Shown in pieces: positions 1-58,597 of a stretch of 64,000 bases of DNA. Below the pieces are notes generated by a model, which was not told the DNA's origin, made no database searches, and saw only the letters and a program-made list of their open reading frames with translations. The first letter of the stretch is position 1, and the number at the start of each line of letters is the position of its first letter. This DNA comes from Octopus sinensis (Eukaryota): positions 24,614,001 through 24,678,000 of the forward strand of contig NC_043016.1 in NCBI RefSeq assembly GCF_006345805.1, in the 5' to 3' direction. Made by a program: the position numbers and the translations under genes.

Positions 1-2653
1 AGGGAATGGAGTTGGGACACATCATAAGAGAGTGAGTACTAAGACAGAGACAAGTGATGTGAATACTCAGAGAAGATAATAAATTGAAGCCAGTAGCCTT
101 CAAACAAAAAGAAGAGTCAACCTAGCCAAATTAACCAATTCTGAAAGGTGAAAGACTTTGTCTAATTTGAGGCAGTGTTCTCAGAACTTTGGGTAATTCA
201 TAGTAGTGAGCTAAACATAAACTGAAGAATATAAGAGGCTGAAATAGAAAAGGTGTGAGAATCATAGTTTGTGAATTGGATGATATAGAGCATTTGAAAC
301 ATGAACAGTGGGTGAAGAGGAATGGGAGAAGCAGCATAGTGAGATTGACACTCACAAAATAATGACTGCAATTAAAGACCAGTGCTCAGATCTACAAAGA
401 CAGAAAAAGGATAGAGAGAACAAGTTGTTCATTATTGGGGATTTGTGGTAGCAAAGAAAGAAAGGGCAAAAATAAAAGATATTGAATACACAAAAGGACT
501 GTAATACTAGCAATCTCAACATAGGTCAGTCATGCATATTAAATAAGAAAAAAAAAGAAAAACTATATTGCAATAATATTGGCAGGAATAAACAGTAAAA
601 ATGTCACATGTAAGTTAATGTAGTCATTGTATAGAAGGAAAGCGGTGAACTCTTTTGTTAGCATATTTCTGATGAAGAATTTAGTAAAATAACTGTCGTT
701 ATTAAACTAATGTTTGGAACATAAATTAACATCAAGTCTTGATGGAAGGTTTTAATTTGAATCACTCTAAAACAGTAAGTGTGATTTATAGAACCAGGAG
801 CAGTTACAGCATGGTTAGTTTGAAAACAGTAAAAAAAGAAATAACTGATTTGTTACATTTCAGTTCTAACATAATTGAAGTCACTTAGTCAATACAGTGC
901 GAAGCGGAGACTATACTCTGCATCCGATAAAATATTAGATATGCCAACCTATTCTACATTAAATTGTATCAAGAAACTATTGATAAATTAGTAAATTCTC
1001 TTAAAAATGCAAGAGAATAACATAATTATTAAAAAATCTAGGAAAAAGTAGTATTATACGCAATTTAGTCATAACATTAGATGAAGTTTGGTTAGGATTT
1101 CAATGGTTGTAATAAATTCCAGCAGATAAACAGTACTTCAAAATTAAAGTGATTTTTCAAATTTAGTTTAGTAGACTAAGGATCCTAGAAATTAAAATGC
1201 AATTGAGATATTTTATAAATCTTGACTTTCAAGATAGGTAGCAGTTCTATTAACCTTGTAACTTTCCTTCAGTTTATAACATTTATGGACATGGGACATT
1301 TTACAATACTGCTTGGTCTGCTAGAAATAGCAGCCAGATTTCTTTCAAATCATACCCCTAAATTATGGTGGCTAAACAATTGTTTGTGGTTATTTGAGAC
1401 ATTTTTTTCATTCGCTTAAGCAATGTTAATGTAAAAGTTTTAAATTTCCCCCATTCCCAAATGGAACAGAATGTTGCTAGATTTGATATAAACCAATATG
1501 AGAAAGATTTAGCATTAGATGTTAAATGAACCAAATCCAGTGAATTAGATTTTAAGGAAACAATGTTAGATAAGACAAAACAAATGAGATAACTGTTTAT
1601 GAAATATCTTATTTAATTTAAAATAAACTACCACCTCAATTATAACTGCTTCAAAGTTGAAAAATCAAGCAAAGAGCTAAACTTGATTTTAATAAAATTT
1701 CCAAGAATTGTATCTGACATTTTAAGTATATATCAAAAAATAAACTTTGCTCAAGAGAAAAATATTCCAAAACTATTGATGGTGATATGAGGAGAGGAGA
1801 GGAGTATTTCTCTTTTTCCCTTCTATGTATAAAGTCCATTTAGTCATTTTCAGAGTGAAACAATAACCTATTAGGAAATGTGCAGGTAACTGTATGCAAA
1901 TAAGAATATAACATTAAAAACATATTCTCTAAAATCTATAATTGAGTCAGCTATATCTTTGCTTCTGTTTCTCTTTTTCAAACTTAAAATTAGTAATTGC
2001 CATGTAAACCGTTTAACAGAATTCTTACATTATTTGGTTTTCTATAGATATTTCTCAAACTAATTTGCTAAATGGCCAATTAAAAGAAACACTACTACTA
2101 CTACTGCCACTATTGTTTACTTCTGATATAAGTTCTGGTTATAAGTGTATTGCTGTCCCTCTCTCTCTTTTTCATGGTTCCTTATGCCCACTTTCCCAAG
2201 GATCAGTACAAAGTCTATACATATGATCTAACAAGGGTGTACGTATTGATCTCATGGAAGGTAGGGAGTGCATTTAACAATCAAGAAGGCTCAGTTAACA
2301 ATGATATATGTAAATTTAATTACAGCTGTTAGAAATTTAGTCCTTCAACTAATTTGTTAAATGTTTCTCTAAAGTATTAGAATATCAAAAGTTTTTCATT
2401 TATCTACAAACATACATATTCCACATTGCTCTACAACATGTGTATATTCACATAATTTTACACAAAACTGAAACATGTAATTTTAAAATGCTGTAAATCA
2501 GCCAGTTGTATTCATGTTTATAAATAAAGGAAAATACAAAAACGCATAATTTTATTTACTCTTCAATTTTCACAATGAAAACTTATTTTTAAAATATTGG
2601 TACAATGCCTTGATACAGTGAATTCTAAATGTAATCATTTTCTCTCAAAACAG

Positions 2654-2950
2654 ACATAAAGCACGGAGGTTACAAATACATATTTTCAGCAGTTGAGATA
2701 AAAGTTTCTGGAACGCCAAGAAACAAGAGACCTTCGGAAACAACAAAGACATCGACGACATTGACAACAACAACAAAAACACCAGCAACAGTGTCATCAA
2801 CTATAATAAAACCAAAACAAACATGGACAACAACAACAAAAACAACTGGTACTACTACAACAACAACAACACAAAGAACAAGTCAAAAGACAACTACACA
2901 GGGCTATGGTAAACCCGAGAGTGGTCGTAACATAAAGGCTGAACCTATAG
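2654..2950 (+). CDS. Membrane receptor gene, exon A: end of ectodomain and Thr-rich (mucin-like) stalk
   Basis: Acceptor tctctcaaaacag|2654, donor 2950|gtaatg, phase 1 to 1. Reads DIKHGGYKYIFSAVEIKVSGTPRNKRPSETTKTSTTLTTTTKTPAT...GRNIKAEPIG and joins the next exon in frame. No upstream exon found in the window. Confidence 0.85.
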
Positions 2951-3233
2951 GTAATGTTACAAAGATAACAAGAAGGAAGTTTTTGTTAGCTGAAAAAAAA
3001 AAAAAAGAAATATGTTAAAATATTTACAATTTGGGGGTTGAGTACATTATCATTATTATATAAGTGTATCAGTAAGAACAACATAGTAACTATAGTAATT
3101 ATATTAAAAGGAAATGTATAAACACTTTATACTGTAAGAACATAGTTTGGAAAATTACGTTAAAAACTTTTCGCTCATATCAAAATTAAGACTATAGCAA
3201 TACAATCTATCCCATTTTATTGTTTATATTTAA

Positions 3234-3728
3234 CCCATTTGTTACCAATTTCTGTTGCTTATATATATAACTTTTTTTTCAATTAATTTCGTATGAAAAT
3301 AAGGAAGAATTTATCAAATTAGCTGTCATTATTATATTGGTTTTAGGAACATAAAATTTTAATGAAAGGTTGTTTTTTTTTTTTATATATCATCAAGAGT
3401 TGTCTCTCACAGGCTGTTATCAAAAGGGTTAAACTTAAAGTTGATTGACATAAAACATTAACTGAGCTACCCAAATAATCATAATAGCTGAGAAATGGTT
3501 TTTTAACCTTTTTGTTACTATATTTCTGTGAAAAATACACTGCTTTTGTTGTTTATGTATTTTGAAAATAACAAAGAATTTAGTAAGATAACATTATTAA
3601 GCTGGTGTTTGGAACAGAAATTGTCATGAAATTTCAATAGAAAGTTTTAACTTAGATTAAAACGTTAAAATAGGAATTTTGTATCCTAGGACCAACAGCT
3701 TGTCTCAGGTGGGTTGATATCAAAAAGG
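3234..3728. mobile_element. Two adjacent piggyBac-like MITEs (3234-3428 and 3507-3728)
   Basis: Each is bounded by TTAA with degenerate CC(C)..TTGTTAC / ATCAAAA(G)GG ends; internal sequence resembles 11066-11285 and a decayed copy at about 650-830. Confidence 0.65.
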
Positions 3729-4137
3729 TTAAAAGTCATTTGAAACAAGATGGTGTTTAAAATTGTATTATTGGCTTACTTTATTTTACAATTTCTGCAT
3801 TCAACCTAGTTCTATTTATGAATAGAACCAGTATACCACACCTGCAATAAAACAGAAATAGAATTAGAAAAAGAGGAAAAGGTCATTTTAAGATTGGTAT
3901 GATAGGGTTATCAAGTAACTCAACTCACCTAATTATCTTGTTTTCTTTCTTCATCTTTTTCGCAATTTATACTTACACATAAAAAAAATAATCTTTCTTA
4001 CCATCAAAAATACTTTTTTTTTTTAATCTACTTCTTTAAAAAGCATTTTATAATACAACATATAAACACATTAATGATTTTACATCAACTCATATTTTCT
4101 AATATAAAGTCCTTTTTATTCTTCTTCTTCTTCCCAG

Positions 4138-4237
4138 GTGGATTTTCAACTGCTGCAGTCCTTGGATTCACTTTGGGCAGTCTGATATTGCTTCTATTGA
4201 TTGTTATCTTACTTCTCCTCTACAGAAGAGGTAACAT
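4138..4237 (+). CDS. Membrane receptor gene, exon B: transmembrane helix
   Basis: Acceptor ttcttcttcccag|, donor |gtaagt at 4238. Reads GGFSTAAVLGFTLGSLILLLLIVILLLLYRRGN(M): hydrophobic span followed by basic stop-transfer residues. Phase 1 to 2. Confidence 0.92.
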
Positions 4238-5032
4238 GTAAGTCCAGTCAGCCACTTATAGTAATACTATTTCCTACTGTTCTATCTAATGATTTTACAA
4301 CCTGTAGAGAAGGGAAGAAAAGAAATTAGTTTTTATTTTTTATAAACAATTTAAATTATGATAATTTCAAAATCTGTATTAAAATTTTTTGCACTTACCT
4401 TAATTTTATATTTCATTGTTTCATTTCTGTATTCGATGAATAACCAAATACTAACCCTATTGCTATAAATTCATAAGTTTCGATATTAAGTAAAACAAAG
4501 GTGCCTTGCTATTTGTGGGCACCTCAAGCTTGGGTGTTTGGTTAGGCAGTTTTGTCTCGCAAATATCTTTGTTTTGGGTTCAATCTTAGGATACAACACC
4601 TTGGGCAAGTGTCTTCAACATTATCCACGAGAGAATCAGTGCCTTGTGCGTGTAATTTGATAAAAAGAAATTGTATGGATGTAAAACACCACCAACTGGC
4701 CCTTGGATGCTATTAGAGGATCCATTCTGTGTTGAACCATTTAGTCCAAGTATAATTTATTTCTCTGACAAAAGCATATTTGAATAACTTTGATTTACCT
4801 ACATATAGACTGAAAATCAAATTGTAATGGATAAATACTTCAGATTTTTGCATCATACAAAAATAGTTTACAACAGCTTAAAAATGGTTCTATATTCCAA
4901 TAAAATAGCTTTAAATCATCTTTAAATCTTTCTTAATTGCTCTTATAATATAAGCTCTTAAAGCATTGCATTTGTAGCCTGGTTCTCACTCTGGATAAAT
5001 ATGTAAAGAATACATGTTTGTATATTTTTCAG

Positions 5033-5183
5033 GCGTAATTTTTCCAATCCTTTTACATCAGGACAATTCTTTCCTAACATTCACAGCAGATTTATTAATC
5101 AAGACAATGTCCCATTAGATGATTTACCAAGTCCAACATATCATAACGAAGGAGGATTTCAAAATCCAGTTTATGGTGCTGAA
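5033..5183 (+). CDS. Membrane receptor gene, exon C: cytoplasmic tail with NPF and FQNPVY
   Basis: Acceptor tatttttcag|, donor |gtaggt. Reads RNFSNPFTSGQFFPNIHSRFINQDNVPLDDLPSPTYHNEGGFQNPVYGAE. Phase 2 to 0. Confidence 0.92.
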
Positions 5184-6248
5184 GTAGGTTCAATAAATAC
5201 TTTCAAAGAATGCATTTCAGAAATGAATTTTCTTGGTCAAATGCACCATATTTTTAATGTAATTTTCATACAATTTCATAACTATTTCTATCAGTGTGTT
5301 TCAATTTTCAATATAATCAGCCTTTTGAAATGGTATTGTAGGATATCTGTAACTATTGCTTATTTATATATATTGGTCATTATTTTGATGTTGACCGACT
5401 GATGAGATTTTGATCAAGAATTTAATTTGAATATGAATACTTAATCCAGGTGGTCTGAGGCTGAATTGTAATTAAGAGTTAAATGATTTCCTTTATAAAT
5501 GTAAGACTTCTGAAAACTTTTATCCTTATGCTAAATTCTTATATATCATTTTATCTAAACTACAATTTAGAAGTATCAAATGTGGCCTTAGGACTGAACT
5601 GTTTTATACCACCTGAAAAATATAAACATATATACAAGACATGTAGTAGAACAAAATGCAATGTTTGCATTATACATCATATTACAAACACAATTGTACT
5701 ATTTTAAACCTTTCTCTAATAATTAGTTTACTGAAGGAGAAATTTAACAAAAATTTTACCTCAAAACTACAACAGTTGTTAAATAAAATAGTCTAAATCA
5801 CACAAAAATAAATCAGTTTACAATACTAGCAGTTCAACTAGCTAAATTAAATATTCTGGTAAGAAAATTAACTTACATGTGGTTTTTGAGTTTTGTCTTT
5901 GTCACCAAACCTGTAAATAAAAATTTTAGCATTAACCAAAAATAGTTGAAAATATTTACATTTTAGTGAAATTCCAAAAATTTCAAGGAAAGGGGCACTA
6001 GTTTTAAGTTAAAGAATGATTTGAAATTTAAATTTTTTTTAATATCCAAAACTTATTTTATTATACGATATTACATGAAAATTATGAAATGTTTTTAATT
6101 TTCAAATGATTTCTAATTTTTTTTTTTTTACTTTATTCAAACCACATCTGGTAAACTTTAAAACTGTGCCACTTTACCAAGAAATATATTTTTTTCTAAT
6201 AATAGAAACATAGTACTTACCAATTGTTTTTCCATTATCTTTGACTAG

Positions 6249-6341
6249 TCAACTAACCGCTCGGCCAGTGGAGGAAATACAAATAATGCGTACAACAACC
6301 AAGAATTCAATAACCCACTTTATAGTTCAGATTTGAACCAA
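6249..6341 (+). CDS. Membrane receptor gene, exon D: cytoplasmic tail with FNNPLY
   Basis: Acceptor ttatctttgactag|, donor |gtaagt. 93 nt, phase 0 to 0. Reads STNRSASGGNTNNAYNNQEFNNPLYSSDLNQ. Confidence 0.9.
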
Positions 6342-7032
6342 GTAAGTTTGTTAAAAATAAACAATGGAATCACTTACCATACATTTTTACCTTTTTATTA
6401 ACACAAACAAACATAGAACAAAGACAGATAATACATTCATCTAACACAAATGCAGCACATACATACATGCATTTATACACACATATATATACACATATTG
6501 TAGAGCAACATCTGGTATAATAATGTATGTTAACAACTGCTTTGTAACAGTTTTGTGTGAATATATATTGTTTATAAACTGCATTATTAGGTAATAATTA
6601 TTATGTACAACTGTGATTATTTCTTATATTCCCCAAATTTTGTGTGTGTGTCTGGGCTTTAACTACAAATAAAATTATTTACAGCAGTTTAGATAATAGT
6701 GATGCTGATAGTTAAGATTAGAACACACATCCCTATAAGGTCCTACAAACCCTTTTTGTGCAAAAGAGTTGGGGTCCCTACTAGCAACTGAATCGTTATT
6801 TATATTGAAGAAATAATGATAATCAATTATAATTTTACCAAAAAAATTTCTCAATTGGCACTAAACTTCTCTTAAATTCCTTCAGTGGGATTTTTTTGAA
6901 GTTACACTAATAAATAACTCTATTTATTCTTGCATCCTGTAACTTTGCCAAATCTTACATATTGGTTTATTGCTTCTAACAAAATTCTCTCCCAAAATAT
7001 AAATTTTAAATCAATTTTGTTTTCTTCTTTAG

Positions 7033-7125
7033 GAAACTTTGTTCGATGATCCCAGCAGAATTTCCCCATCTCTCTCTTTGGAACCTACTAACGATCCTGC
7101 TGAGTTGCAAGACAGCACAATCTAA
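7033..7125 (+). CDS. Membrane receptor gene, terminal coding exon ending in DSTI-stop
   Basis: Acceptor ttttcttctttag|. Reads ETLFDDPSRISPSLSLEPTNDPAELQDSTI*. Confidence 0.88.
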   Translation, partial: ETLFDDPSRISPSLSLEPTNDPAELQDSTI

Positions 7126-7289
7126 GGAAGGAGTCGAGGAAGAAAATATTTTTAAAGTTACTTTAGATTATCATCATCAACATCTGTTGAACATACTGTC
7201 AGCTTTGTCTATCGGTTATTATTGTTTCTTTATAGATTAACCAAAACATTTAAAAGTCTAAAATGTGACTTGTGTAACAATATACATGG

Positions 7290-7426
7290 AATAAATATTC
7301 TCTAATCATCTTGCATATATCAAATTATCTTCCAGCGTATTTGATGAAAGCGCGTTGTCGTGGTGTTTGACATGTTCTGAAAAAGAAAGAATTTAGATTA
7401 GACTTGGTTATTCCCAACTGAATAAA
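7290..7426 (+). terminator. Candidate polyadenylation signals of the receptor gene
   Basis: AATAAA at 7290-7295 and 7421-7426, downstream of the stop at 7125. Confidence 0.55.
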
Positions 7427-7465
7427 TGGCATAACAATAATCTTTAACATTGGTTTGTATATGTA

Positions 7466-7511
<46 letters not shown>

Positions 7512-10217
7512 CAATAACAGTGAGTAGATGGAAGTTACAGTCAAAAATTATTGGAGGGAAAATGGTTGCAAAATAGGTTGGTTGGGTCACGAGTTATTAG
7601 CCTGTCAATGCTTTTCAAGAAAAGGAGTATTATCTCTCTTTGAGTGCAAATTAACGTAATTATATAATTCCATGGGGAGAAAATTATAATCAGAATTAGC
7701 AATAAGTTTTTAGTCTGACTAAACATCGGCATTGTCGGTCTTTTTTAAACATATTTTACAATTCTTTCGTTTGTCTCTCACACGCACACACATACATACA
7801 AGCACACGCGGGTATATTAAATAAATTATCTGTACGATTACCAGTGTCACTGTTATAAAAGTAACAAACAATGAAATGGTATATAATAAATGAGTAAATA
7901 GGTTTTACCTGTGAATGTCCGCTGACAAACGTAAATCTAATTATAATTATGGGTTGAACAAATCCCGCCATTAAGACACAAGGCAATTACGTCTGAGCAC
8001 GGCTAAGGATTGTGAATGAAATGAGACTGACAGCTCGTTAAAAGTGAGGCCTTATCAGCACAAATATAATGACTGTTTGTTTCAGTAACATAGATATCTT
8101 TATATTATTTGGATGTCTACATAAAAACCGTCCTGGTGTGGTATTACTCTCATGAGAGACATTCAATGCCGTACAAACAAAAAACCGCGGGGGGATGGGA
8201 AGAGAAAGGGAGAGAATGTTCTGGAGAGAAAATTATTTTGGGTGTGATGGTTGAGATGTTAAATTAACTGATATCGATAGTAAGAGTTTGCAACTGTAAT
8301 AAAACTGGGGTAAATAGACAGGATAAACTTAATAATAGTAATTATTACTCGATCTAACCGTCATGAGGTGAGTTGCTAATACAACCACATATTACCATTA
8401 TGATTCATATCAAAATGGAGACTTGGTGGATCTGCTTTTGAGGAGGTTTTCCTCGTTTGATTCCACGAATCGATCAAAAGTTCACTTTTTTTTTTTATTA
8501 GTAATAATCATAAATGAATCAAGCGTTTTCTTTTTATGAGCGTTAAGCAATATTATAACCACAAATCGATCATCGTCGAGTTCTAAATCGAAAGTGATTT
8601 CGCAACACGACCGATAAATTATATGGCAACGGCACGATCAAAATTGGCAATTTAAAGTGAATTATGATCCTCGTTTTCTTCCCTTTGTCAGATTTTCTTT
8701 ATAGAAAAATGTTTATCCAGTGATAAATAGAAAAGAGAAAAACTCTAGCTGACAGACCTACCTGTAGGTGAACTTGCTGCCTCAGATACTGACCATCACT
8801 AAGAACTTCCGCAATAAATTGCCATGTCAACAATGGATTGATGGAAGAATGTCATCATTATTTTCGTATTTCATTGCAACAATTATAACACGCTCGATAA
8901 ACAATTATAAATAATAATTAATTTTGTTAATAAAGATTATAATTATTATTAGCTAATTATTAATACTCTGTGCATTTGAAAGCGAATTTTTAAAAAATGG
9001 TGACGCATTAACAACAACATTAGTGATATATTAGAACCGCTAGGGCGGAAAAAATTTCCTGAAACTATTTCTTTTAATGCACTTTCCTACATAACGAGAA
9101 ATAAGTATTTGAAATTAATTTGATTTCTGGGGTTTCATCTGATTAAATCGTTATATCTAGTGCTACAACTACATTATTTCTAAGCACACCCAGATGAGAC
9201 TGCTTAATATATTTTTATTTGCAATGTTGCATCAATAATGACTACTACTTCACCTTTCGAGTGATTAACTGTCTCAGTCCTAAGCAATAAATTACTAATT
9301 TCATTTTAGGTATCGATATGTCAGGGGGGGAAAAAGGTTTCATTTCCCGCTTTTACGAATGAGAAATATCTCTATTATTCTGTGCGCATACGCATTACAA
9401 GTGCATGATTAGTCTGTTAGGAGCTTTAATAAAACTGCTGTCCTTGTCAGTAATACATTTACTAAATATTCTATATAATCTAAATCAAGAACATTTTACG
9501 ATGTAAAAGACACAATGCTCTCAGTACCGAAATAGTATAAGTATTGTAGTGATGAGGATATTTTTTTTTTCGGCAGATACTTTTCACTCGTTTTATTATA
9601 AACTTCAGAAATCAAACAATTAAATTTTAGCGAAATTTGAGTAATAGCTGTGTACCCCACAATACGATGTATATATATACAAAGGAATTTGTAAGCATTC
9701 CTCTAAATTGTTAATGTCATATGCGTGTGTGACAACAAAAACAAACAAACAAAAATCAGAGTAGCAACAAATGGTTGTGTGTTTGTGTTGAAATAATTAT
9801 ATTCAGTAGAGTTAATAAATGTTGAATCGTTTCCAATTTAACTATTATTCAATATGGCCGGAAAATTTTAATAATCAAGAAATATTTTTCATAAAACATT
9901 GGCAACAATTAATTTTAGTTAATTACAAATTAATATAATCTAGGTTTTATTAAAGCGAGTGACTGAAAAATATATAAAAAAAATTTATTCTTTCATAACA
10001 ATGGAATTATGTAACAAATTTTAATGACAGGAAAAGCGCGCATAAACTGTAGCCTTCGATTTTAGTTTCGTATCCGAAGTTGTGTCGCAGTCCCGCTAAA
10101 AATATGATTTCATGTATCCGCATATCTATGGTCGATGGCGTTGTTGTTGCGTACACTTAGGTTCAACGCGGCAAACGCATACCAGTCGCGACTGATTCAA
10201 CTTATTGCAGATATATT

Positions 10218-10271
10218 GGAAATACGTACAGGGCACTTGTACTCATGTACAAGTGCCCTGTACGTATTTCC
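10218..10271. repeat. Perfect 25-bp inverted repeat with 4-nt spacer
   Basis: ggaaatacgtacagggcacttgtac-tcat-gtacaagtgccctgtacgtatttcc. Confidence 0.95.
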
Positions 10272-10466
10272 TTAAGTTACTTATGACTTATGACTATAGA
10301 GGGAGAGATATTACTACTGTTTCTAGGACCACTTAGAGGTCCTATGTTGGCTTGGTATATCATTACGGTCGCAGTGGTTGTAGCGTTTTATTTAGCCCCA
10401 GGTCAACACATCGATTAAACTTACTAATCAAAGACGTTCCCCTCTCGAATATCAAACAGCACATCC

Positions 10467-10672
10467 GAGAGGGTGCTGAAAATTCCTGTCTTTAAGAGTG
10501 TCGCGAAAGGTTGTTTGGAGGCTCAACCTTCCGTGTTTTTTTACAGGGCTTAGAAAAAAAACTGAAGGACCGTTGCAATAAGTGTGTGAATCTGAGAGGG
10601 GAATAGGTTGAATAAAATCATAATTAATCCTCCTGCATTTTCTTTTACCCACAGCCAGGAACTTATTGAACT
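10467..10672. mobile_element. Mariner-derived MITE
   Basis: Begins cgagagggtgctgaaaattcctg and ends ..agccaggaactt; same family as 36514-36617 and 36843-37043. Confidence 0.6.
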
Positions 10673-11065
10673 TTTTTTTTTCATTGTATTTACTAAATCG
10701 ACAACTCATTTCCTATTTCACTTTGTAAAATGACACTTCTATGTGGTCACTCGAACAGAGTGCTAGAAATAGCAGCGAAATTTCCTTCGAATGGTATTAA
10801 ATGTAAAAGAACACATTTGATAATGTGTAGTTTTCGATAAATTTTAGCATTTATCGATTCAAGCTTTTTTTAACAAATACACCCTTTACTATCGTTCTTT
10901 AAATACTAAAATATGAAAGGCACTTTTTGATTCTATACCGTTTTAATAGTAGTCACACTGTTATTAAGTTAAAAACATTTTGATAACGAAAATCCAACTT
11001 AACCGAATCATTTTCATAAGTTTGTCCTATACTTGTTTTCAGACATTTAGTTAAATTTTGTTTAA

Positions 11066-11285
11066 CCCTTTCGTTACTGTATTTATTTTGAGATGCTCTG
11101 TGTTTCTTTCAATTACTTTAAATATAATAAAGAAGTTAGTAAAATAACTTAGTTATCATTCAGCTAGTGTTAGGGACATAAATTATGACTTAGGTTTGGT
11201 GGAAGATTTTAATTCAAAACTTATGAAAACAAGACATTTGTACTCAGAGCCAGAGCCGGTTGCATCTAGATTGGTAACGAAAGGG
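11066..11285. mobile_element. piggyBac-like MITE
   Basis: TTAA|CCCTTTCGTTAC ... GTAACGAAAGGG|TTAA: perfect 12-bp TIRs and TTAA target duplication. Confidence 0.85.
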
Positions 11286-11419
11286 TTAATACATTCTGAG
11301 AAATTTAGTTTCCTTTGACGATTCCCAAGTTACTCTGGTGTTTGAAAAAAAAATGGTAATGTGTATCATATGTAATATATGGATGCCAGGGAATCCTGTG
11401 TATACTATGTGATATATAG

Positions 11420-11673
11420 CAGTGCTTTTCAAACTATATGATGTGACGTACCGGCGGTTTTTTCCCCAATGTGCCAGGGACTGGTAATATTAATTCATAC
11501 CAGAAACAATGTATATAATGAATATAGTAAAAGCTGACAATTATTTTTAACTTATATTTATTTTGTAAACAAATGATACAATACTACATAAGCATTTTAC
11601 AATGTTTCTTTTCTGGAAACTCACTGCGTACCGGCAGCTGATGGCGCCCGGACCACCACTTTGAGTGGCACTG
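11420..11673. mobile_element. hAT (Charlie-like) non-autonomous element
   Basis: Termini CAGTGcttttcaaa ... tttgagtggCACTG; 8-bp flanks atatatag / atgtatag (7 of 8 identical), consistent with a hAT target duplication. Confidence 0.75.
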
Positions 11674-12281
11674 ATGTATAGGACAAGCAAAGGGTTTTGC
11701 CAGACGTGCAAGAAATTGCGAGCCACACCATACGTTTTAAAAATAAAGGAAGATAAATTAGACTATAAAGTAGCTCTGATCAATGCCTGTGCTATGATCA
11801 TAGGTCTCCTGGAAAAGTGTTGACTTCGGGCTAAGCAACAACAAAATTCAAAACTGTTGGATTTTCTTGGAAACTTTACGAAAGCCATTTTACGTAAGAT
11901 CTTGAGAAAATATGGGCAAACATAAATAGGCGGACTTAACATGTTTGCCAAGAATCGAAAAAAAAAATTTAATTATTCCTTCATCGATTCGTGTTGTATT
12001 TTATTTGGGGGCACGATTACTTTTGTTAACCTAAGCAATACCATCACATTTATATTTTAAAGAACGAAAATAAATCGACGGGACCCATGGATGCCTATAG
12101 TTGGAAAGTCGTTGTCCATAGGTCTAGATTAATCCAACAGCTTGTATTAACTTCAAATTCCGTAAATTCCTCATTCGTCTCTCCATACACGTGATTGTGA
12201 TGAACTTAACTGCATATTACCTTGAATATAAAAAAATATATATATTTCTGTGCCGGTAGCACAAAAAAAAAAAAAAAAAAG

Positions 12282-12511
12282 CACCAACTGATCGTGGCCG
12301 ATGCCAGACCCCTCTGGCACCTGTGCAGGTGGCACGTAAAAAGCACCCACTACACTTGCGGAGTGGTTGGCGTTAGGAAGGGCATCCAGTTGTAGAAACA
12401 CTGCCAGATCAGACTGGAGCCTGGGGCAGCCCCTGGCTCCCCAGACCCCGGTCGAACCGTCCAACCCGTGCTAGCGCGGAAAACGGACGTTAAACGATGA
12501 TGATGATGATG
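12282..12511 (+). mobile_element. Octopus-type SINE, 3' part with (ATG)n tail
   Basis: gagtggttggcgttaggaagggcatccag ... ggacgttaaacgatgatgatg; further copies at 34178-34779 (-), about 37040-37235 (-), about 37690-37875 (+) and about 42200-42372 (+). Confidence 0.8.
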
Positions 12512-15061
12512 ATATTGAAAGGTAGCTGGGTCAGTTGTCAACTTCATTTGACATTACCGTACTTGATTTTCACCGTTTTAGCCTATTTGGAATTGACAAA
12601 CTAACGCTTATAAAAATTAATAACTTACGGATTTACCATGGCAAGTGAGAAAAAAAATCCGACATTTCGGACATTTTTCTTTCCTCAAAACTGAAAAAAT
12701 GTAGAGGCTGTTACCGTAGTGGAATAAAAGAAGTTTACTTCTGATGGCATCGCCCTCGTGACACTGAATTTTCTTTTAGCTTTGCAGACTTTTATTTTAT
12801 TCATCGAACTCAAAAGTAAAGTTGATGTCGATGGGATTTGAACCCAGAGAACCGGAACGAATAATGCATGGCATTCTTTTCAACGTTCCAACGATTCTGT
12901 TACCAAATTGCCGCCTAAGGCGAATGAATATAGCAAAAGTAGGTGCGGTGAGAAAGATAAGAGTTTGTAGCAGAAACCAGAACGGCTGAAATGGGAGAGA
13001 TATGGTGAGGACAGGCTACCATCTATTTCCTTACATTCCGGATTTTACACTGCTTCTTTCAACGAAGGAGAGCTGCAGATTGCCGGATCAATTGGATAAG
13101 AGGGAGTGAAAAAGGACAAAAAGAGAAGAAATCTCATGAAAAAGTCTTGGAGAAAGCGCAAAAGAAAAATGAAACATCCTAACATCGATGTATACTGTAA
13201 CCATGACCACGGCACTTCAGAGGTAAATGTGGTGTGGTTCGCGGGAAGATTATTATTGCTAGAAGATGAGCGACCTCGAAGAGAAGTAGTTAGACGTGGT
13301 TTATCGGCTACTTTTAGCAAATATCCATACCCTGTAAGTTGGACATACGATTTTAGGATACTGTGAGGGGTCTTGACTGTTATTTCTAACAGGTTGTGTA
13401 ACCTTATAAGGATTCTTTATTAACTTACACACATACAAGAGGGAGATATTGCTCTCATATTTATTCAAGGGAAAATTGATTGCTGATTGGTGCGTACATA
13501 CGTAAAATTAATAAGGGGTGGTTTGAGAAGATTCGGAAGAGGTTTGGTTGCTACTGTAAAAGACTCTGATTGGCCTATGTATTCATAAGATAATCAGTAG
13601 TCATTTGAGGGAAATTTGATTGCTTTTTTTTCTACCAATTCCAACGACTATGTAGAGCATCCCTCGTCAACTCCCAAGGCTTTTTGACCCCAGCGGTTTG
13701 TGGAACTCAGTCCTGTCATTTCAAAGATGTCGCCAGACCTACTAGAAACAGTTGACAGAACCTCTCTCAAATAACATTCTACCGCCTTAAGAAAAAAAAA
13801 AAAACATTGCATAAAGTTGTACAAGATAAACTGTCTGGAAAGACAGGGTAGTCGTAGCTATAATGTTTTGGAACATAGAGAGGCTTTACAAGTTTTGACT
13901 CGAAACTAAACAACAACGAAAAGAACGGCCACCAACATTATTTGAGACCACTTCGCAAAGCAATGCACTGGAACCCTTGCATATGCAACTACAGTATACA
14001 CCGATAACCAATGAAGGCTTATATATCCCGCCCTACTCCCAGTGTGCCCGTGTCTTAATAGCGTTTATTCGTGGGTCAACACGATACGACTTGCTAGATC
14101 TTACCACCGGCTATAGTTACATCTTCTGGAAGAGACTTATTCTTAAATATTGCATCATTAGTTTTGGCTACCTTCTTCTACCTCACAGTTCTTACTGAGT
14201 GTCATTGATAACCAATAACGTCCTAATGAGTCAGTGGTGAATGGCAAAAGATTAAAAAAATGTCTCGAGTAAAAATATCACGTCATTTAAATATTACGCT
14301 CTACTCATTAACTGACGTTACATAACGTGTACACGATTGCAGATACAGCTTTTAATAATGATGGCATTACACTAATTCACACACGCAAAGACAAATTACG
14401 TTGTATTCAACATGTTATAAACAGAACAATGGAACAACAGAAAAATGTATTAAATCAGTTATTTTATTGAACTTTTTTGTCTTATTTTTTCTTCACACTT
14501 TTCCTATCACTTTTTGTGTTTCCTAAAACCACTAAGTAGGCACTATAGAAATAGCAGCCAAATACCACTCAAATCATATATTAGCATCTTTAAAAAAGAA
14601 GTGGATATATCTTTCTGTATTTGCTGCACAATTCTCTTAATCTCCCCCACCTTTGACTTAAACATAAAGAAAAAAAAAGAAAAAAAAGGTAACCATTCTT
14701 AAACCGAAACATGTCATAGTTTCGTTAAACAATTACGAAAGAATCGTATTTTTTATTAACAAAGAGCACGTGAAAAGACCAACAAAAATGTGGGCGTATT
14801 TGCGAGAAAAAATATAATTATTAACGGCGGAGGTAAAGAATGTGTACACCACCCATTTTCGGCGTGTGTGTATATAGGGGGGGGGTCTACAAAAAGTTTT
14901 TGGGATTTGTATGTTTTCGATAGAGGAGAATACGTTTTGCCCAAAAATCACGTTTTCAAAATTTTTATTTCCTCCATCCCCAATTTCTTAATTTTTAATC
15001 TCTTTTCAAATTTTCTTTATAATCCACGTAGAAAAATACAGAGATTACGAATCTGGGAAAT

Positions 15062-15413
15062 TTTCTCTTTTATTTGTTTCAGTCATTTGACTGCGGCCAT
15101 GCTGGAGCACCGCCTTTATAGTCGAGCAAATCGACCCCAGAGCTTATTCCTTGTAAGCCTAGTATTTATTCTATCGGTCTCTTTTGCCGAACCGCTAAGT
15201 TACGGGGACGTAAACACACCAGCATCGGTTGTCAAGCGATGTTGGGGGACAAACATATACACACACACATATACATTCATACAAACTTCCAGTTTCCGTC
15301 TACCAAATCCACTCACAAGGCTTTGGTCGGTCCGAGAAGACACTTGCCCAAGGTGCCACGCAGTGGGGCTGAATGTGGTTGATAAGCAAGCTACTTACCA
15401 CACAGCCACTCCT
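15062..15413 (-). mobile_element. tRNA-derived SINE
   Basis: Minus-strand head aggagtggctgtgtggtaagtagcttgctt, body ..gtaacttagcggttcggcaaaagagaccgatagaata.., tail aaatgactgaaacaaataaaag. Other copies at about 4525-4680, 24486-24600, 30981-31326, 37285-37640 and 42070-42195. Confidence 0.85.
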
Positions 15414-15514
15414 TTGAAGGGTATTTATATAAAATTTCATTTAAAAACAATAGAAATATCATTATTTCTAATTCTCTCTAAAGGAGACTACGGCAGCGGT
15501 ACTGGATAGTAATA

Positions 15515-15779
15515 GTTATCGCCAAGCTAACTTGGCAGTCCATAAAAATAGGACGAATGCTGCCTTTGATTAGCTCCAAGAGGTCATCGCCTCTAGCTAA
15601 CTATGTGACACACAAACCTGTGTCTATTACAAACTTCGAACAGGGGAGGTCAGCAGCTTCCTCTTGCTGGCATTCACAGACTAGTTTCAAGGTGGTTGCC
15701 TCTTATCAATGTCAATGTCATTGATAAAAGGCAACATTCGTCCTATTTTTCTGGACTGCCATGTTAGCTTGGCGATAAC
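15515..15779. mobile_element. MITE with about 50-bp TIRs and TA flanks
   Basis: gttatcgccaagctaacttggcagtccataaaaataggacgaatgctgccttt ... aaaggcaacattcgtcctatttttctggactgccatgttagcttggcgataac, flanked by TA. Confidence 0.8.
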
Positions 15780-16822
15780 TATAAATATACATTAAAAAAA
15801 TCCCATTTTCCTAAAAGTTATGAGAGAAAAACATAGGATCTTGTGAATTTTCCAGAGACCTCACCCCACTCCACCGTTGCTTTCCCGGAATTTTTGTTTT
15901 TATATTCGTTCCTTATACCTTTTTTTACACCCGTTGCACTATTTTTTTTTCGATTTCGTTTCCGGGTAATAATGTCAACATTAACCAATTTCTTTTTTAA
16001 CTTTTAATTTTTCTTTAAGAAACACTCAATGTCCCTTTCACCCACACACATCCCTCAACCAGCCATTACCTCCTCGCTTTCAAAAAAAAATTAAAATTCA
16101 GCATGTTTCACTTTCGATTGATGTTTCACGCATGCATAGAATTCTACTGAAATATCAAACCACCACCAGAAATTCCGACATGGTTGAAGCAACAGCTCAG
16201 TGACATTATTTCGGGAAAAAACTTCCCCGCTTTCAAAAGAGCTAAAAGTAAAGCATTCGGAGTTTTTAGCTTTTTTAATGTGTGTGTGTGTGTGGGGGGG
16301 GGGTGATGGAGATTGGGGAAGAGGATTTAAGCGTTCTTTTAGAAAAAGCTTTTAAAAAAAATTCTTAAAGATTCGTAATCTCTATTTTTCTACGTGGATT
16401 AAAAAAGAAAATTTTGAAAAACGTTGAAAATTAAAATTTAGGTTCGGGAGGGTTAAGGTTATTAACATTTTGAAAACGTGTCTTTTGGGCAAAATCCTAA
16501 TTGCCTATGTCGAAAACACAAACCCGAGGAAATTTTAGGGAAAAATAAGGTGAGTGAGATAAAATTTCGAAAACGTGATTTTGGAGCAAAATCATATTCT
16601 CCTATAGGAGAAAAACTCAGCATGTTTCACTTTCGATTGATGTTTCACGCATGCATAGAATTCTCCTTTAGGAGAATATAATAATAATATAATAATAATG
16701 AAATTATTGTATACAGTGCTCAGGTGCACCACAACTTGTCAGAAAGTGCATATAAAGTACATGCAGTAATGTAGAAATGTCTGGAAAGTGAACATGCTTG
16801 TGTGTGTATGGAGGGGAGAAAA

Positions 16823-19642
16823 TCAAGTGTAGTGTTGGCGAATCTCAGGAAGCATGGAAGTCTTGAAGGATGCAGTGCTCCGACAACTAACAACCGATGC
16901 CGGCAGTTTGTTCCACGCTTCAGCAACTCTCAGCGTGAAAAAATGTTTCCTGAAGTCATGGGAGCTGTGCTGTTTTCTTACTTTGTAAATATGTCCACGG
17001 GTGTTAGATGGGTGGAGTTTGAAGAGGTGCTCAGAGTTATTGTTTGTGCGATGGTTGATAATTTTATGGGTGTCTGCCAAGTCAGCTGCCAGACGTCGGA
17101 GTTTCAATGTGTCCATGCCCAGGGAAGTAAGGCGTTCAGGATATGGCAAATGCCTGATGGAGGGTATTCTTTTGGTTGCACGTCGCTGAACAGCTTCCAG
17201 GCGATTGATGTCCTGGGCAAGATAGAGGTTCCAGACCGGTGATGCAAATTCCAGGTGAGGTCTTACCATAGCTATATAAAGCCGCAGATAGATAGCCGGA
17301 TTTGGTGAGTGATGCCAAGACACCCTCAGCCTTCTTGACAATTTTAGCGATGTGTTTTGTCCAACGCAAATCACTGTCGACAATAACACCCAGGTCACGT
17401 TCACTTGAAGACTTTTTGAGACTAGTGTTGTGGAGGGAGTAGGTGGATGCTGGGTTTCTCCTCCCAAAATGCATGGTGGTACATTTGTCCACAGCCAGCT
17501 TGAGTTGCCAGTCCATGATCCACTGCTGCATTGTGTCCAGGTCTGCTTGCAATAGAGATCCATAGTGTATAGGATTTGACCTCTTTATTTCGAGGTACAG
17601 CTTGATGCCATCTGCATATTTCAGCACTGTGGCATTCTTTAAGTTGGCATCTATGTCATTAACATATGCAACAAATAAAAGGGGGCCAAGAACAGATCCC
17701 TGCGGCACACCAGATGTCATCTCATAGGGCGAAGAGTGCTGTCCTAGAACTGACAACCTCTTTTCGGCCGAAAATAAAGGACTTTAACCAGTTATAGAGT
17801 TCGTCTCTTACACCCAACGCAGAAAGCTTCACCATAAGTCTTTTGTGTGGCACAGAGTTAAAAGCCTTAGCAAAGTCCAGGTAAACAACATCCACCCAGG
17901 ATCCGCGATCAGTGATTTGGGTAACGTCCTCAAGAAACTCGATGAGTTGATTACAGCAGCTGGAGTTAGGAATAAATCCGAATTGTGACGGCTGGATGAG
18001 GCTGTGAGACTTCCAGAAGTTCCAGAGGGTTTCTCTGATACAGGATTCCATCAGTTTGGCGATGCAGCTGGTAAGACTGACGGGGCGATAGTTGACAGGC
18101 GATGTGCGGTCGCCTTTTTTGAACAGAGGGATGACACTGGCAGTTTTCCACTGTTCTGGAGTAACACCATTGTCAAGACAGAATTGGAAGAATAGAGAAA
18201 GTTGGCTTAGAAGAAAGTACCCACCGCGTTTGAGAAGTAGGTATGTAACACCATCGAGACCAGGAGAGGCATAATTGCGTTTATCTTTAGGTGGCGTTGC
18301 AGCATTGCTGGTGTAAGTTGCATAGAAGATATAGAGTCCGATGTCAGTGGTGATGATGATGGAACATTTTGGTCTTCGACAGTAAAGATGCCGGCATAGC
18401 ATCCAGCAATGATTTCTGCACATTCTTCGGGATTGCCAGTAATCTGTCCTGTGTGGGAATTGCGAAGGGGACCAACAGGAGAGTGGGGTCTCTGCTTTGA
18501 GTGCACATACTTCCAGAACCCTTTGCTGTCAGGGTTAGCTGCAATGCGTTGTTCAAATTCAAGCACTGCCTTTTTTGTCACCTGCTTGAGGTGGTTGGCT
18601 GACCTATTGCGCTTTTTCCTGTTGCTCTCTGATTTGTGCAATTTGTATTCCCGTTCAGCATTACGGCGTTCTTTCCTGGCAAGTCGGACTGCTGCAGTCT
18701 CCCAAATTGCACTATTGGGTGGTTTTTTGTGCTTGCGTGGTACTGATGCTGCACATGCTGCCCATATTGAATTCAGAATGTTCTGGAGTATAGTGTCCAC
18801 ATCTCCAGAGGCATAAAATTCGCGCCAGTTTGGGCGTTGCAGCTCAGTACAATAAGAGCTCCAGTTTGCTTTATTCCAGTCAAAGCGGGCAATCTGAAGA
18901 TGGTTGTGTTTTTTGTTACAACCAATCAGAGACAAGTCGGCCATGATCATGGAATGATCAGAGTCACCCAAAGGTTCTTCGGTAGCGACACTAATGATTG
19001 TTTCAGGAGAAGCGGTAAGTAGCAGATCCAAAGTGTTGTTACCCCTTGTGGGGGAGGTAACAACTTGGGACCAATTCGAATTCAGCACCAGTTCAAGGAA
19101 ATCGTCTGCACTTTGCGGCCAACGGAAGGCCTCCCAGTCAATCTCAGGGAAATTGCAGTCCCCCGCAACATACACATATCTGGCTGTTTTCATGGCAGCC
19201 GCCCTGAGGATATCAAAAAGCTGTGCGTCTTGGCGATAATTTGGAGGACGGTAAACGACTCCGAGCAGAAGTGTTGACATGGTCATGTGTACATTGCAGA
19301 AAAATACCTCCTGCTGAGATTGGTTCAAATCATCACAGGGGATTGCCGATAGACTTGATCGAACATAAATCATCACACCCCCTCCACGGCGATTAATGCG
19401 GTCTTTGCGGAACAGGTTATAGCCGGCTATGCTGAAAACTCCATCACAGAGTGCAGAGTGTGCCCACGTTTCCGTGACTGTGATGAAATCTGGGTTGATA
19501 CTTTTGACGTAGGAGACAAAAAGATGCACCTTTGTTACATAAACTACGGGCATTCAAGGACAGCAGTTTATATCTGGATTTCAGATGATGATATACAGGG
19601 GATGGCTGATTGTTCTTGGTTAGTTTCCCAAGATTTTTGCAT
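16823..19642 (-). pseudogene. LINE ORF2 endonuclease-reverse transcriptase, disrupted
   Basis: Assembled from ORF-track pieces 18207-19553, 17722-18423, 17136-17756 and 16823-17563. ATG at 19642; frameshifts near 19531, 18285, 17755 and 17300; catalytic YADD reads YADG. Confidence 0.9.
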
Positions 19643-20173
19643 TGCCAGTTGTTGTTGTGGGTGTAGTCTGCTCAGTCCAACTGGCATCCCTTATCCACGA
19701 CTCACCAGACTTGACGAATTTCCAGATCTGCCCATCATCGCGGAGGCTAAAACTCTCCCGTGGCACAGAGTTGCGATTTAGGGAAGCCACGGATCTTATC
19801 TTTGGGCGTACATCGGGTGGTAGGCCAGGACGTGTTCTAAAGTTGATAATGTTGTCACGCCGAGCTCTGTCAGCAGCCAGATGGAATGTCCGCGCCTCAG
19901 TAGAGCCCGTAAACAACAGCCTGATCAGCCTGGGTTTGGATCTCGGTCGGCCAAGGCGGGAAGCACTTTTTGGAGGGACACAGCTGAGATCCCTAGCTGT
20001 GTTTCCAATGAATGCCTGCAGATCTGCCACATCTTCCGGCACTCCGATGGCTATTAATTCATGAGTGGCCGGTTCAGCAACTCCCTCGATGCGTTGAGGT
20101 TCTGTACGAGCTACAGGTAAGTTGCTGAGCAGGGCACTCCTATATGACCCTTCGCTGCGAGTTTTAATTTTGC
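19620..20173 (-). pseudogene. LINE ORF1, C-terminal portion
   Basis: Open frame with IGVPE..RLGR..KPRLIRL motifs typical of CR1/L2-group ORF1; stop at 19620-19622, overlapping the ORF2 start. Confidence 0.75.
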
Positions 20174-20798
20174 TCGAAAACATAGAAATCCGAAAAAGGT
20201 TATGAATAAAAAAAAAGAACACCGAAAATGAGTGGTGTACACATCCTTTACTTCTGCCGGCTGAAAGGAAAAAGCCTCAAGGGAATGTCCCGGAAACTAA
20301 ACAGAAACACACATACACACAAAATAACTTTCACAAGGGAAAGGTTGAGCAACCGGAAACGTCAGTTATTGTCAATCTTGTAAAAGTTAATATGCATTCT
20401 ACTAAAATGTATTAAGTGATCCTTTATTTAATGTTAAAATTGTTATATATAACTTCACATAAATACAAAATATGTATGATCAACTGGGATTATCCAGGAT
20501 GTTTAAAAAGCTGCGGGCAACTAACAGGGAAGATAACTCAGATAAGATGATAGCTTTATCTCCACTTGTCTCCCTTAAATAGAGATGAACTACGGTAGGA
20601 TCTTCGTTAGTTGTTTCATGTTCTTACTTGAAGTAAGCAACATGTTGGAAAACTAAAAAATCTAAAGGCAACACTCAAGGAAGATAACTTCAGTAAGGTC
20701 GAAATTTTAGGACAAAATTCCAAGAAGATTATCTTATTCTAAAATTTTTTTCCTTCAACATCACTACACTCTCACTGCTTCTGTATGTTTATATTATA

Positions 20799-21313
20799 CT
20801 AGCAGCATAGCCCGGCATTGCCCGGGTATGTAAGAGCCCCTGGAGCAGACATGATGCTTGCTGTGAATTTTTAAAAAATTCCTGCCAATTTGTGAAAGAT
20901 ATTGTCGAAAATATGTCATCTTGAATTTGAACACGATTTCCCAAAATGGCATGATTTTATCGATTTTTTCTCATGGTAAGGTATTGCATGGAAAACTAAT
21001 GTCAGAATTAAGTTTCTTAGGGTAACATTAAGCTTCACCATGAGTTTGGTGAAAATCGATTGCAAGTTGCGAAAACTACAACAGAAAATGTGTTGCAAAT
21101 AAAAAGCTTAGATTCTCGTCCCCATGTCGAATTTATCGATTTTTTTCAGAACTGGGGAGACTTTTCAAAATTTTCGCTGCGTTAGTTTTGAATTATGACA
21201 TTGGGCTATGTGTGTGTCAAGTTTCATCAGAATCGGTTGAAAGCCGTGGTTAGGGTGAGGGTACAACCTGACAGACACACAGACAGACAAACTGCCGTTT
21301 ATATAGAGAGAGA
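20799..21313 (-). mobile_element. Non-autonomous Helitron-like element
   Basis: Minus strand starts A|TC.. followed by a (TCTG)n stretch and ends in a GC hairpin (cccgggcaatgccggg) then CTAG|T; no target duplication. Confidence 0.75.
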
Positions 21314-53621: not shown

Positions 53622-53649
53622 CAGTAGTAGTAGTAGTAGTAGTAGCAGC

Positions 53650-53683: not shown

Positions 53684-53707
53684 AGCTACTAGAAGACTCA
53701 TCCTTAC

Positions 53708-58559: not shown

Positions 58560-58597
<38 letters not shown>

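What the first reader, a model, noticed from the sequence alone, without database searches (positions are those of the whole stretch)
3780..6400. Hidden spliced antisense transcript threaded through the receptor's 3' introns
Seen: within about 2.6 kb the minus strand has three textbook acceptors (ctaaaatttttatttacag at 5911, ctaatttcttttcttcccttctctacag at 4302, ctaattctatttctgttttattgcag at 3842), five GTAAGT donors (6377, 6220, 5876, 4398, 3976) and an AATAAA at 3780-3785. They pair into exons 5877-5910, 4399-4462, about 3977-4301 and from 3841 down, with short introns of 97 and 135 nt. The 4301 exon covers the whole sense TM exon in antisense. Inference: a cis-natural antisense RNA able to mask the TM exon (soluble versus membrane form), or to form dsRNA for ADAR, which is very active in coleoids. 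This is the best candidate here for an undescribed regulatory system.
Basis: partly seen in the sequence, partly recalled or inferred. Interest (0 to 1): 0.75.

Follow-up and report, generated by a model that had tools for sequence, protein, structure and literature searches.

The report
Octopus female Z-linked antisense RNA, Zfest
An RNA spliced from the opposite strand of the octopus amnionless gene is real and is very likely Zfest, an already reported female-biased non-coding RNA of the Z sex chromosome; its likely last exon carries about 55 short repeats predicted to fold into hairpins, which would suit a role in boosting the female's single Z.

Summary
The sense gene is the single amnionless (AMN) gene on contig C20, very likely the Z chromosome. 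Contigs of 4 of 4 runs laid (4 studies) show minus-strand GT-AG introns 4302-4398 (predicted), 5613-5876 and, from a loose end, 2990-3779 (both unpredicted). Junctions 5877-4462 and 3977-3841, acceptor 5911 and poly(A) at 3780 were not seen. Contig lengths imply a long non-coding RNA from about 7380 to at least 1.9 kb left of the window. A preprint (10.1101/2024.12.09.627507) describes a female-biased 13.8-kb antisense lncRNA in octopus AMN (Zfest, LOC118767298), a dosage-compensation candidate; I could not see its coordinates (identity about 0.9). Not in that text: a Z-unique array of 55 approximately 45-nt CU-rich units in the inferred last exon, 54 predicted to form a small hairpin, an Xist/roX/MHM-like architecture. 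Selection for the hairpin is not shown. Masking of the TM exon would cause a frameshift and early stop; no editing signal was visible in contigs. Best mechanism: chromatin scaffold for upregulating the female Z (0.4, untested).

The parts
5877..7376 (-). Antisense exon (1500 nt); covers AMN exons 6249-6341 and 7033-7125 and part of its 3' UTR. 5' boundary inferred at the acceptor AG ending at 7377
   Evidence: 5877-6100 and donor 5876 seen in 4 of 4 runs; 3 of 4 contigs go 1274-1283 nt past 6100; X1 length fits a start at 7380 exactly; strong acceptor at 7377. A start of transcription here is not excluded
5613..5876 (-).
   Evidence: joint in 4 of 4 runs, CT..AC; spliced versus retained depth 86.6 vs 4.9 (X5) and 136.6 vs 14.2 (X6)
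4399..5612 (-). Antisense exon (1214 nt); covers AMN exon 5033-5183
   Evidence: continuous contigs in X1, X5, X10; pieces in X6
4302..4398 (-).
   Evidence: joint in 4 of 4 runs
3780..4301 (-). Antisense exon (522 nt); covers the AMN TM exon 4138-4237
   Evidence: continuous across 3842-3976 in 4 of 4 runs
2990..3779 (-). Antisense intron, 790 nt, GT-AG; holds a ~230-nt high-copy dispersed repeat (3500-3733)
   Evidence: loose end at 3776 in 4 of 4 runs continues with window 2957-2989 (ends); spliced vs unspliced depth 197.4 vs 5.8 in X1; repeat: 3651 candidates, 40 scored
1..2989 (-). Long inferred last exon; covers AMN stalk exon 2690-2950 and continues left of the window, likely to AATAAA pair at G000:C20:24609131 and 24609112
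   Evidence: X10 contig runs 4882 nt past the junction; if colinear it ends 1889 nt left of the window, inside the first perfectly repeated 31-mers. Beyond the first ~30 nt inferred from lengths; 3' end from motifs only
1..30 (-). First unit of a 3.3-kb tandem array (55 units, median spacing 45.5 nt, CU-rich, core CUCUUAUGAGGUGU) that lies mostly left of the window, G000:C20:24610770-24614030
   Evidence: unique to this locus by core pattern
7909..8900 (-). Candidate first exon(s) and promoter in a CpG-rich zone; candidate donors at 7908 and 8761
2690..2950 (+). AMN exon: Thr-rich stalk
   Evidence: tblastn of P0001/P0002/P0008; X6 loose end at 4136
4138..4237 (+). AMN exon: transmembrane helix (100 nt)
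   Evidence: GT..AG joint 4237-5033 in X6 only
5033..5183 (+). AMN exon: first NPxY motif
   Evidence: 100% to O. sinensis amnionless, PF14828
6249..6341 (+). AMN exon: second NPxY motif
   Evidence: X6 loose end at 5183
7033..7125 (+). AMN last coding exon and stop

Best explanation
A spliced, abundant RNA without a long reading frame runs antisense across the last five exons of the single amnionless gene, and it is very likely the female-biased Z-linked lncRNA Zfest, which likely works as a chromatin scaffold that would help raise output from the single Z of Z0 females. Steps: (1) shown here: minus-strand splicing, exon extent in 3735-6100, absence of a long ORF in the model, the repeat array in the DNA; (2) from the preprint: female bias (18-fold), Z linkage, partial dosage compensation; (3) inferred: identity with Zfest (about 0.9), start in the CpG-rich zone at 7.4-8.9 kb, inclusion of the whole array in the RNA; (4) untested: that the ~55 CU-rich hairpin units are repeated protein-docking sites, that the RNA stays on the Z in cis and that it recruits an activating complex. 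The overlap with AMN is probably incidental: the lncRNA arose in that locus.
For: Three GT-AG introns on the minus strand in 4 of 4 runs from 4 studies, depth 82-229, with the sense junction present in only 1 of 4. 18 further-or-same transcriptome-sized or unlabelled small runs hold 0.56-0.86 of the words of 2600-7300 (only 4 laid), near the 0.73 expected from the antisense exons and far above the 0.15 from sense exons. AMN is single-copy: 3 of 3 PF14828 matches lie in this locus; the O. sinensis AMN record lies on a contig of the same length as C20. The preprint, whole text read, places a 13.8-kb female-specific transcript over introns and exons of AMN on the Z (O. sinensis LG20), annotated antisense as LOC118767298; my inferred span from about 8.8 kb to the AATAAA pair is about 13.7 kb (12.3 kb from 7380). 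Longest ATG ORFs of the 11.1-kb model are 118, 115 and 101 aa, all in the repeat, no Pfam match in 3 of 3. Array: 55 units, 54 of 55 predicted to fold a hairpin over the UUAU loop, mean -5.85 kcal/mol against -3.56 (0 of 200 half-shuffles) and -4.47 (0 of 500 random chimeras); 901-nt core z = -2.5. Tandem repeats are protein hubs in Xist (A and E repeats), Rsx is repeat-rich (PMC12101419, passages), roX uses conserved stems (PMC7734150, passages), chicken MHM lncRNAs are female-biased and tandem-repetitive (PMC6771406 abstract and section 6).
Against: No functional data exist; the preprint itself calls the role a possibility. I could not see its figures or coordinates, and AMN spans 76 kb, so identity rests on locus, strand, size and abundance. 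Sex of the laid runs is unknown. Contigs are unstranded: strand comes from intron ends. Hairpins fold no better on the RNA strand than on the opposite strand (p = 0.55) or than chimeras with the closest relative unit (p = 0.32); RNAalifold on the gapless alignment gave no consensus; two registers compete and most single-pair tests are not significant. The repeat core has no other copy on C20 (14 of 38 genome matches are in the array, 0 elsewhere on C20; control 30), so no DNA target sites of that kind. Conservation was seen only in a haplotype about 0.5% away. Compensation is partial and birds achieve similar partial compensation largely without a chromosome-wide lncRNA (recalled).
Confidence: 0.4

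Rival explanations
1. Same RNA, but a local or switch-type regulator: an MHM- or Tsix-like female transcript that changes chromatin only near its locus or opposes the male lncRNA Zmast, rather than coating and activating the whole Z.
For: Mirror expression of Zmast and Zfest (preprint). Chicken MHM RNA is female-specific, accumulates at its site and is linked to local compensation only (PMC2375040 passages). No Z-wide copies of the repeat core.
Against: No data on localisation; nothing here links it to Zmast.
Confidence: 0.22
2. Female-biased transcription without a function of the RNA: a promoter beside AMN responds to the female Z chromatin state, and the splice sites and the satellite-like array are passengers.
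For: Hairpins show no strand preference and no excess over closest-relative chimeras; a similar GTAAGT cluster occurs nearby, and 3 of 5 listed donors are unused; one intron is filled by a common repeat.
Against: High depth, efficient splicing (about 90-97% where both forms are listed), same junctions in two haplotypes, binary sex bias in two species (preprint).
Confidence: 0.2
3. Cis-natural antisense regulator of amnionless: convergent transcription or duplex formation lowers or alters AMN (cubam vitamin B12 and protein uptake) in females.
For: All three antisense introns fall inside AMN introns, so the mature RNA is complementary to all five 3' exons; random placement gives this in 8% of 100,000 trials. 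Sense junction absent in 3 of 4 runs rich in antisense RNA.
Against: 8% is weak; AMN is probably tissue-restricted (recalled), which explains its absence; sense and antisense junctions coexist in X6 with the TM exon included; the RNA is reported in brain, arm, gonad and paralarvae (preprint), and is far longer than needed.
Confidence: 0.12
4. One reading: masking of the TM exon to make soluble AMN, or a duplex for ADAR recoding.
For: The antisense exon does cover the TM exon; coleoids edit heavily (recalled).
Against: TM skipping is out of frame with an early stop; no skip junction or loose end at 5033 in 4 runs; no A>G or T>C in 4138-4237 in contigs, which cannot show partial editing.
Confidence: 0.04
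5. The RNA is the spliced UTR of a protein-coding gene on the minus strand (3' UTR of kinesin light chain, or 5' UTR of a gene to the left).
For: KLC lies on the same strand in the window.
Against: KLC stops near 43154 with AATAAA at 42001-40552, 33 kb and a 15-kb CpG-rich zone away; no long ORF in the model; annotated as lncRNA (preprint).
Confidence: 0.02

Closest known systems
Zfest (LOC118767298), octopus Z-female-specific transcript; bioRxiv 10.1101/2024.12.09.627507
   Same: Antisense in the amnionless locus, covers its introns and exons, on the Z (LG20), comparable size (13.8 kb reported; 12.3-13.7 kb span inferred here).
   Different: Very likely the same gene. The preprint text gives no exon map and mentions no repeat array (term counts); figures and supplements not seen.
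Chicken MHM1/MHM2 lncRNAs
   Same: Female-biased Z-linked lncRNAs from tandem-repeat loci in a female-heterogametic system with partial compensation.
   Different: MHM units are long (542 bp for MHM2) and defined by male hypermethylation; here ~45-nt units inside a spliced antisense exon, in a CpG-poor stretch; methylation untested; no homology tested or expected.
Drosophila roX1/roX2; anole MAYEX
   Same: Expressed in the hemizygous sex from the sex chromosome; roX binds MSL proteins through repeated stems; MAYEX as cited in the preprint.
   Different: No Rfam match; no partner complex, coating or target sites known; works-like only.
Xist / Rsx
   Same: Long, spliced, female-expressed, with very long terminal exon and tandem repeat domains; CU-rich units recall Xist repeat E, stem-loop units with pyrimidine spacers recall repeat A.
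   Different: Xist and Rsx silence one of two X chromosomes; here the expressing sex has one Z, so silencing would be the wrong direction. No homology.
Cis-natural antisense transcripts, tail-to-tail
   Same: Opposite strand, overlaps 3' exons of a coding gene.
   Different: No sign that the sense gene is the target.

Membership tests
Zfest (LOC118767298) | Lies in the octopus amnionless locus | tested here: met
   100% identity to O. sinensis amnionless; single locus
Zfest (LOC118767298) | Antisense, covering AMN introns and exons | tested here: met
   CT..AC introns and continuous contigs over AMN introns in 4 of 4 runs; strand from intron ends
Zfest (LOC118767298) | About 13.8 kb | tested here: inconclusive
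   At least 9.3 kb span from contig lengths; 12.3-13.7 kb with inferred ends
Zfest (LOC118767298) | On the Z chromosome (O. sinensis LG20) | tested here: inconclusive
   Contig is numbered C20 and has the length of the contig carrying the O. sinensis AMN record; Z status from the preprint, not tested by coverage
Zfest (LOC118767298) | Female-biased expression | not testable with these tools
   Runs are coded, sex unknown
Zfest (LOC118767298) | Same coordinates as the annotated gene | not testable with these tools
   Figures and annotation file not available
Long non-coding RNA | No long or conserved ORF | tested here: met
   ATG ORFs of 70 aa or more only inside the repeat, longest 118 aa; 0 of 3 with Pfam match; the unknown first exon was not included
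Dosage-compensation lncRNA (roX, Xist, Rsx, MAYEX type) | Tandem repeat or repeated stem-loop domain | tested here: met
   55 units, 54 predicted hairpins; presence in RNA inferred from one contig length for the first ~1.9 kb
Dosage-compensation lncRNA (roX, Xist, Rsx, MAYEX type) | Structure under selection | tested here: inconclusive
   Beats shuffles and random chimeras, not the opposite strand or closest-relative chimeras
Dosage-compensation lncRNA (roX, Xist, Rsx, MAYEX type) | Nuclear, coats the sex chromosome, needed for compensation | not testable with these tools
   Needs FISH, ChIRP and knock-down
Known Rfam family (roX, Xist, snoRNA or miRNA host) | Covariance-model match at gathering score | tested here: not met
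   Window 1-16000: 10 matches, all far below gathering, none in 3780-6400; L003: 0
ADAR-edited sense-antisense duplex | Clustered A-to-G or T-to-C over the overlap | tested here: inconclusive
   None in 4138-4237; 2 of 11 differences of that type, fixed in three runs; contigs hide partial editing

The most novel reading that the evidence does not exclude
Zfest is the octopus counterpart of roX: a female RNA that coats the single Z and activates it, and the 3.3-kb, Z-unique array of about 55 CU-rich hairpin units in its last exon is the docking domain for the activating complex. That would be an independent origin of the repeat-scaffold design in what may be the oldest animal sex chromosome.
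Probability: 0.25. Interest if true: 0.88.

Novelty: already known. Interest (0 to 1): 0.5.

Why it matters
The transcript itself appears to be in print, so this is a rediscovery from raw sequence. What this work adds is a usable anatomy: three exact introns, likely ends, and a locus-specific hairpin repeat array not mentioned in the only paper found. How cephalopods compensate their ZZ/Z0 chromosome is open, and the array gives direct handles: a multi-copy FISH or ChIRP probe target, a bait for protein pull-down, a deletion target, and junction primers that could sex animals from RNA if the identity holds. It also warns that AMN counts and some AMN isoform models in octopus may be contaminated by antisense reads.

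Tried and rejected
No RNA holder listed: records no run as RNA; RNA origin of the 4 laid runs is inferred from removed GT-AG introns. Only 3735-6100 was laid, with 4 of 24 listed runs; 6100-8900 and everything left of 3735 rest on loose ends, contig lengths and motifs. KLC 3' UTR: rejected. snoRNA/miRNA host: no Rfam match. Z-wide dispersal of the repeat core: none; weak matches on C4 are CT microsatellite. Acceptor 5613 from a transposon: no other copy found of 5500-5930 (search skips common words). RNAalifold on 55 gapless units: no consensus. X10 loose end at 4133 not found in the 174 kb held. Earlier scan notes: nothing near, nothing by words. Literature: searches for Zfest, Zmast/LOC118767298, and cephalopod or coleoid dosage compensation returned only the one preprint as relevant; subscription journals are not searched, so a later journal version may describe exons or the repeat. 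PMC9989829 (antisense and editing in metazoans) seen as search listing only. No DNA of more distant cephalopods could be obtained.
Full report
1. The observation. Five minus-strand GTAAGT in 2.6 kb exceed shuffles (mean 0.91; 3 of 1000 reach 5) and two acceptors by my rule exceed them modestly (26 of 1000). The motif argument has limits: another minus-strand cluster of five lies 4.8-7.3 kb left of the window, and 11 of 132 tiles reach the same acceptor count.

2. The sense gene. The exon 5034-5183 is 100% identical to Octopus sinensis amnionless (PF14828), 96% to O. bimaculoides and 82% to Argonauta. The gene spans about 76 kb, from 69 kb left of the window to a stop at 7125; its last five exons (stalk, TM, two NPxY exons, stop) are in the window. 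All 3 PF14828 matches in the genome are in this locus. The window is G000:C20:24614001-24678000, and C20 has the length of the contig that carries the O. sinensis record.

3. RNA evidence. 20 of 24 listed runs, from 8 studies, hold at least half of the words of 2600-7300; none is on record as RNA. Exons of the antisense model predict a share of 0.73, sense exons 0.15. I laid four runs from four studies on 3735-6100. All four skip 4302-4398 and 5613-5876 with CT..AC ends, and all four leave the genome at 3780 and continue with sequence ending at 2989, a 790-nt GT-AG intron on the minus strand (ends). Depth is 82-229; where the retained form is listed it is 3-10% (197.4 vs 5.8; 86.6 vs 4.9; 136.6 vs 14.2; one weaker case, 19 vs 2). 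The sense junction 4237-5033 appears in 1 of 4 runs (X6), with the TM exon joined on both sides. X1 has no substitution against the window; X5, X6 and X10 share 10-11 substitutions and several indels, a haplotype about 0.5% away, and splice identically. Contigs are unstranded, so strand is read from intron ends.

4. One of three junctions, two of five donors, one of three acceptors. Contigs are continuous across 3842-3976, 4463-5611 and 5911; the AATAAA at 3780-3785 precedes a used donor. Rare forms could be hidden (contigs drop them; 10 pieces not shown).

5. Extent, inferred from lengths. The X1 contig is 3242 nt; exons 7380-5877, 5612-4399 and 4301-3780 give 3240, and X1 carries a 2-nt insertion. 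So no intron is removed between 6100 and 7380, and the contig ends at the strong acceptor at 7377; X5 and X10 end within a few bases, X6 breaks earlier at the sense junction. One X10 contig runs 4882 nt past the 3780 junction and, if colinear, ends 1889 nt left of the window, inside the only block of perfectly repeated 31-mers, where an assembly graph must break. Two AATAAA lie 4869 and 4888 nt left of the window. Candidate donors for a first exon are at 7908 and 8761, in a CpG-rich zone (7-22 kb) that borders a CpG-poor stretch over the transcript. Model: at least 11.1 kb spliced, span 12.3-13.7 kb. ATG frames of 70 aa or more occur only in the repeat (longest 118 aa), with no Pfam match; no Rfam family. 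It is not the UTR of kinesin light chain, which stops near 43154 with its own AATAAA signals.

6. What is known. A bioRxiv preprint (10.1101/2024.12.09.627507; whole text read; figures and supplements not seen) reports partial dosage compensation of the octopus Z (O. sinensis LG20), a male lncRNA Zmast, and an 18-fold female-biased 13.8-kb transcript over introns and exons of AMN, annotated in O. sinensis as antisense lncRNA LOC118767298 and named Zfest; function untested. Locus, strand, size and abundance agree with what I found; coordinates and sex bias I could not check. I put identity at about 0.9. Seven further searches found no other relevant paper; subscription journals are not covered.

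7. A feature not in that text. The inferred last exon holds a 3.3-kb degenerate array (G000:C20:24610770-24614030): 55 units by profile, median spacing 45.5 nt, 68% pyrimidine on the RNA strand, 105 CUCU/UCUC per kb against 1-8 in upstream exons. The profile was built from units in this array, and found 1 weak hit elsewhere in 174 kb. The 20-nt core pattern matches 5 times in the genome, all here; the 14-nt core 38 times, 14 here, none elsewhere on C20, control 30. 54 of 55 units are predicted to fold a small hairpin over the UUAU loop, better than half-shuffles (0 of 200) and random 5'/3' chimeras (0 of 500) and neighbour chimeras (-4.6 to -5.2 vs -5.85), but not better than the opposite strand (p 0.55) or closest-relative chimeras (p 0.32); one of seven column tests is strongly linked (p 8e-5) but copies are related; RNAalifold gave no consensus. 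So the hairpin exists as a prediction; selection on it is not shown.

8. Mechanism. Sex-specific lncRNAs that compensate sex chromosomes share repeat or stem-loop domains without homology: Xist A and E repeats, repeat-rich Rsx (PMC12101419, passages), roX stems (PMC7734150, passages), chicken MHM loci (PMC6771406 abstract and section 6; PMC2375040 passages). Because the expressing sex has one Z and that Z is upregulated, I commit to a roX- or MAYEX-like activating scaffold in cis (0.4). Rivals: local MHM/Tsix-like regulator (0.22), passenger transcription (0.2), antisense control of AMN (0.12; all three introns sit in AMN introns, chance 8%), TM masking or ADAR duplex (0.04; skipping is out of frame with an early stop; no editing signal in contigs), UTR of a coding gene (0.02). 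It works like a dosage-compensation lncRNA in anatomy and reported expression; membership in that class needs localisation and knock-down, which are untested.

9. Verdict. Real, very likely already known as Zfest; the exon map and the hairpin array are additions that make its function directly testable. Novelty: already known. Interest 0.5; 0.88 if the array proves to be the docking domain of a Z-activating RNA (probability 0.25).

Noticed in passing
window 5184-5402 and 6342-6500, + strand: NCBI 'isoform X1' models of amnionless read through a donor into an intron: at 5184 in O. sinensis (XP_036367554.1) and at 6342 in O. bimaculoides (XP_052829582.1). Both introns lie in antisense exons, so these models may be artefacts of antisense coverage, and the second hints at a Zfest counterpart in O. 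bimaculoides (inferred).
   Followed up: partly
G000:C20:24606734-24609240 (4760-7266 nt left of the window), - strand: Second cluster of five GTAAGT; either chance or further splicing of a longer antisense form that would reach the next AMN exon.
   Followed up: no
window 7000-22000: CpG-rich zone (o/e often near 1) between two CpG-poor gene bodies; TATCGATA (DRE-like, label recalled) at 8272 and 9311; a plus-strand ATG followed by GTGAGT near 8362-8375 suggests a possible divergent transcript.
   Followed up: no
window 43154-62167, - strand: Kinesin light chain, last seven coding exons, with alternative donor at 59968/59935 and an optional 12-codon exon at 50654-50689.
   Followed up: partly
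window 10207-10281: Near-perfect 54-nt palindrome; weak miRNA-model matches far below gathering score.
   Followed up: no
window 16823-20276 and 22207-23191, - strand: LINE-like retroelement with ORF1, endonuclease and broken reverse-transcriptase frames (motifs recognised from recall), plus a second RT fragment.
   Followed up: no
window 5011-5033 and 5612-5634: The sense AMN acceptor and the antisense acceptor 5613 are 83% complementary 23-nt arms 578 nt apart; convergence or a small inverted duplication.
   Followed up: no
window 4133, run X10: A low-depth (11.8) loose end joins unknown sequence at the TM-exon acceptor; not found in the 174 kb held.
   Followed up: partly
window 5199: All 4 runs carry a 2-nt insertion against the window, suggesting an assembly error or a private allele.
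   Followed up: no
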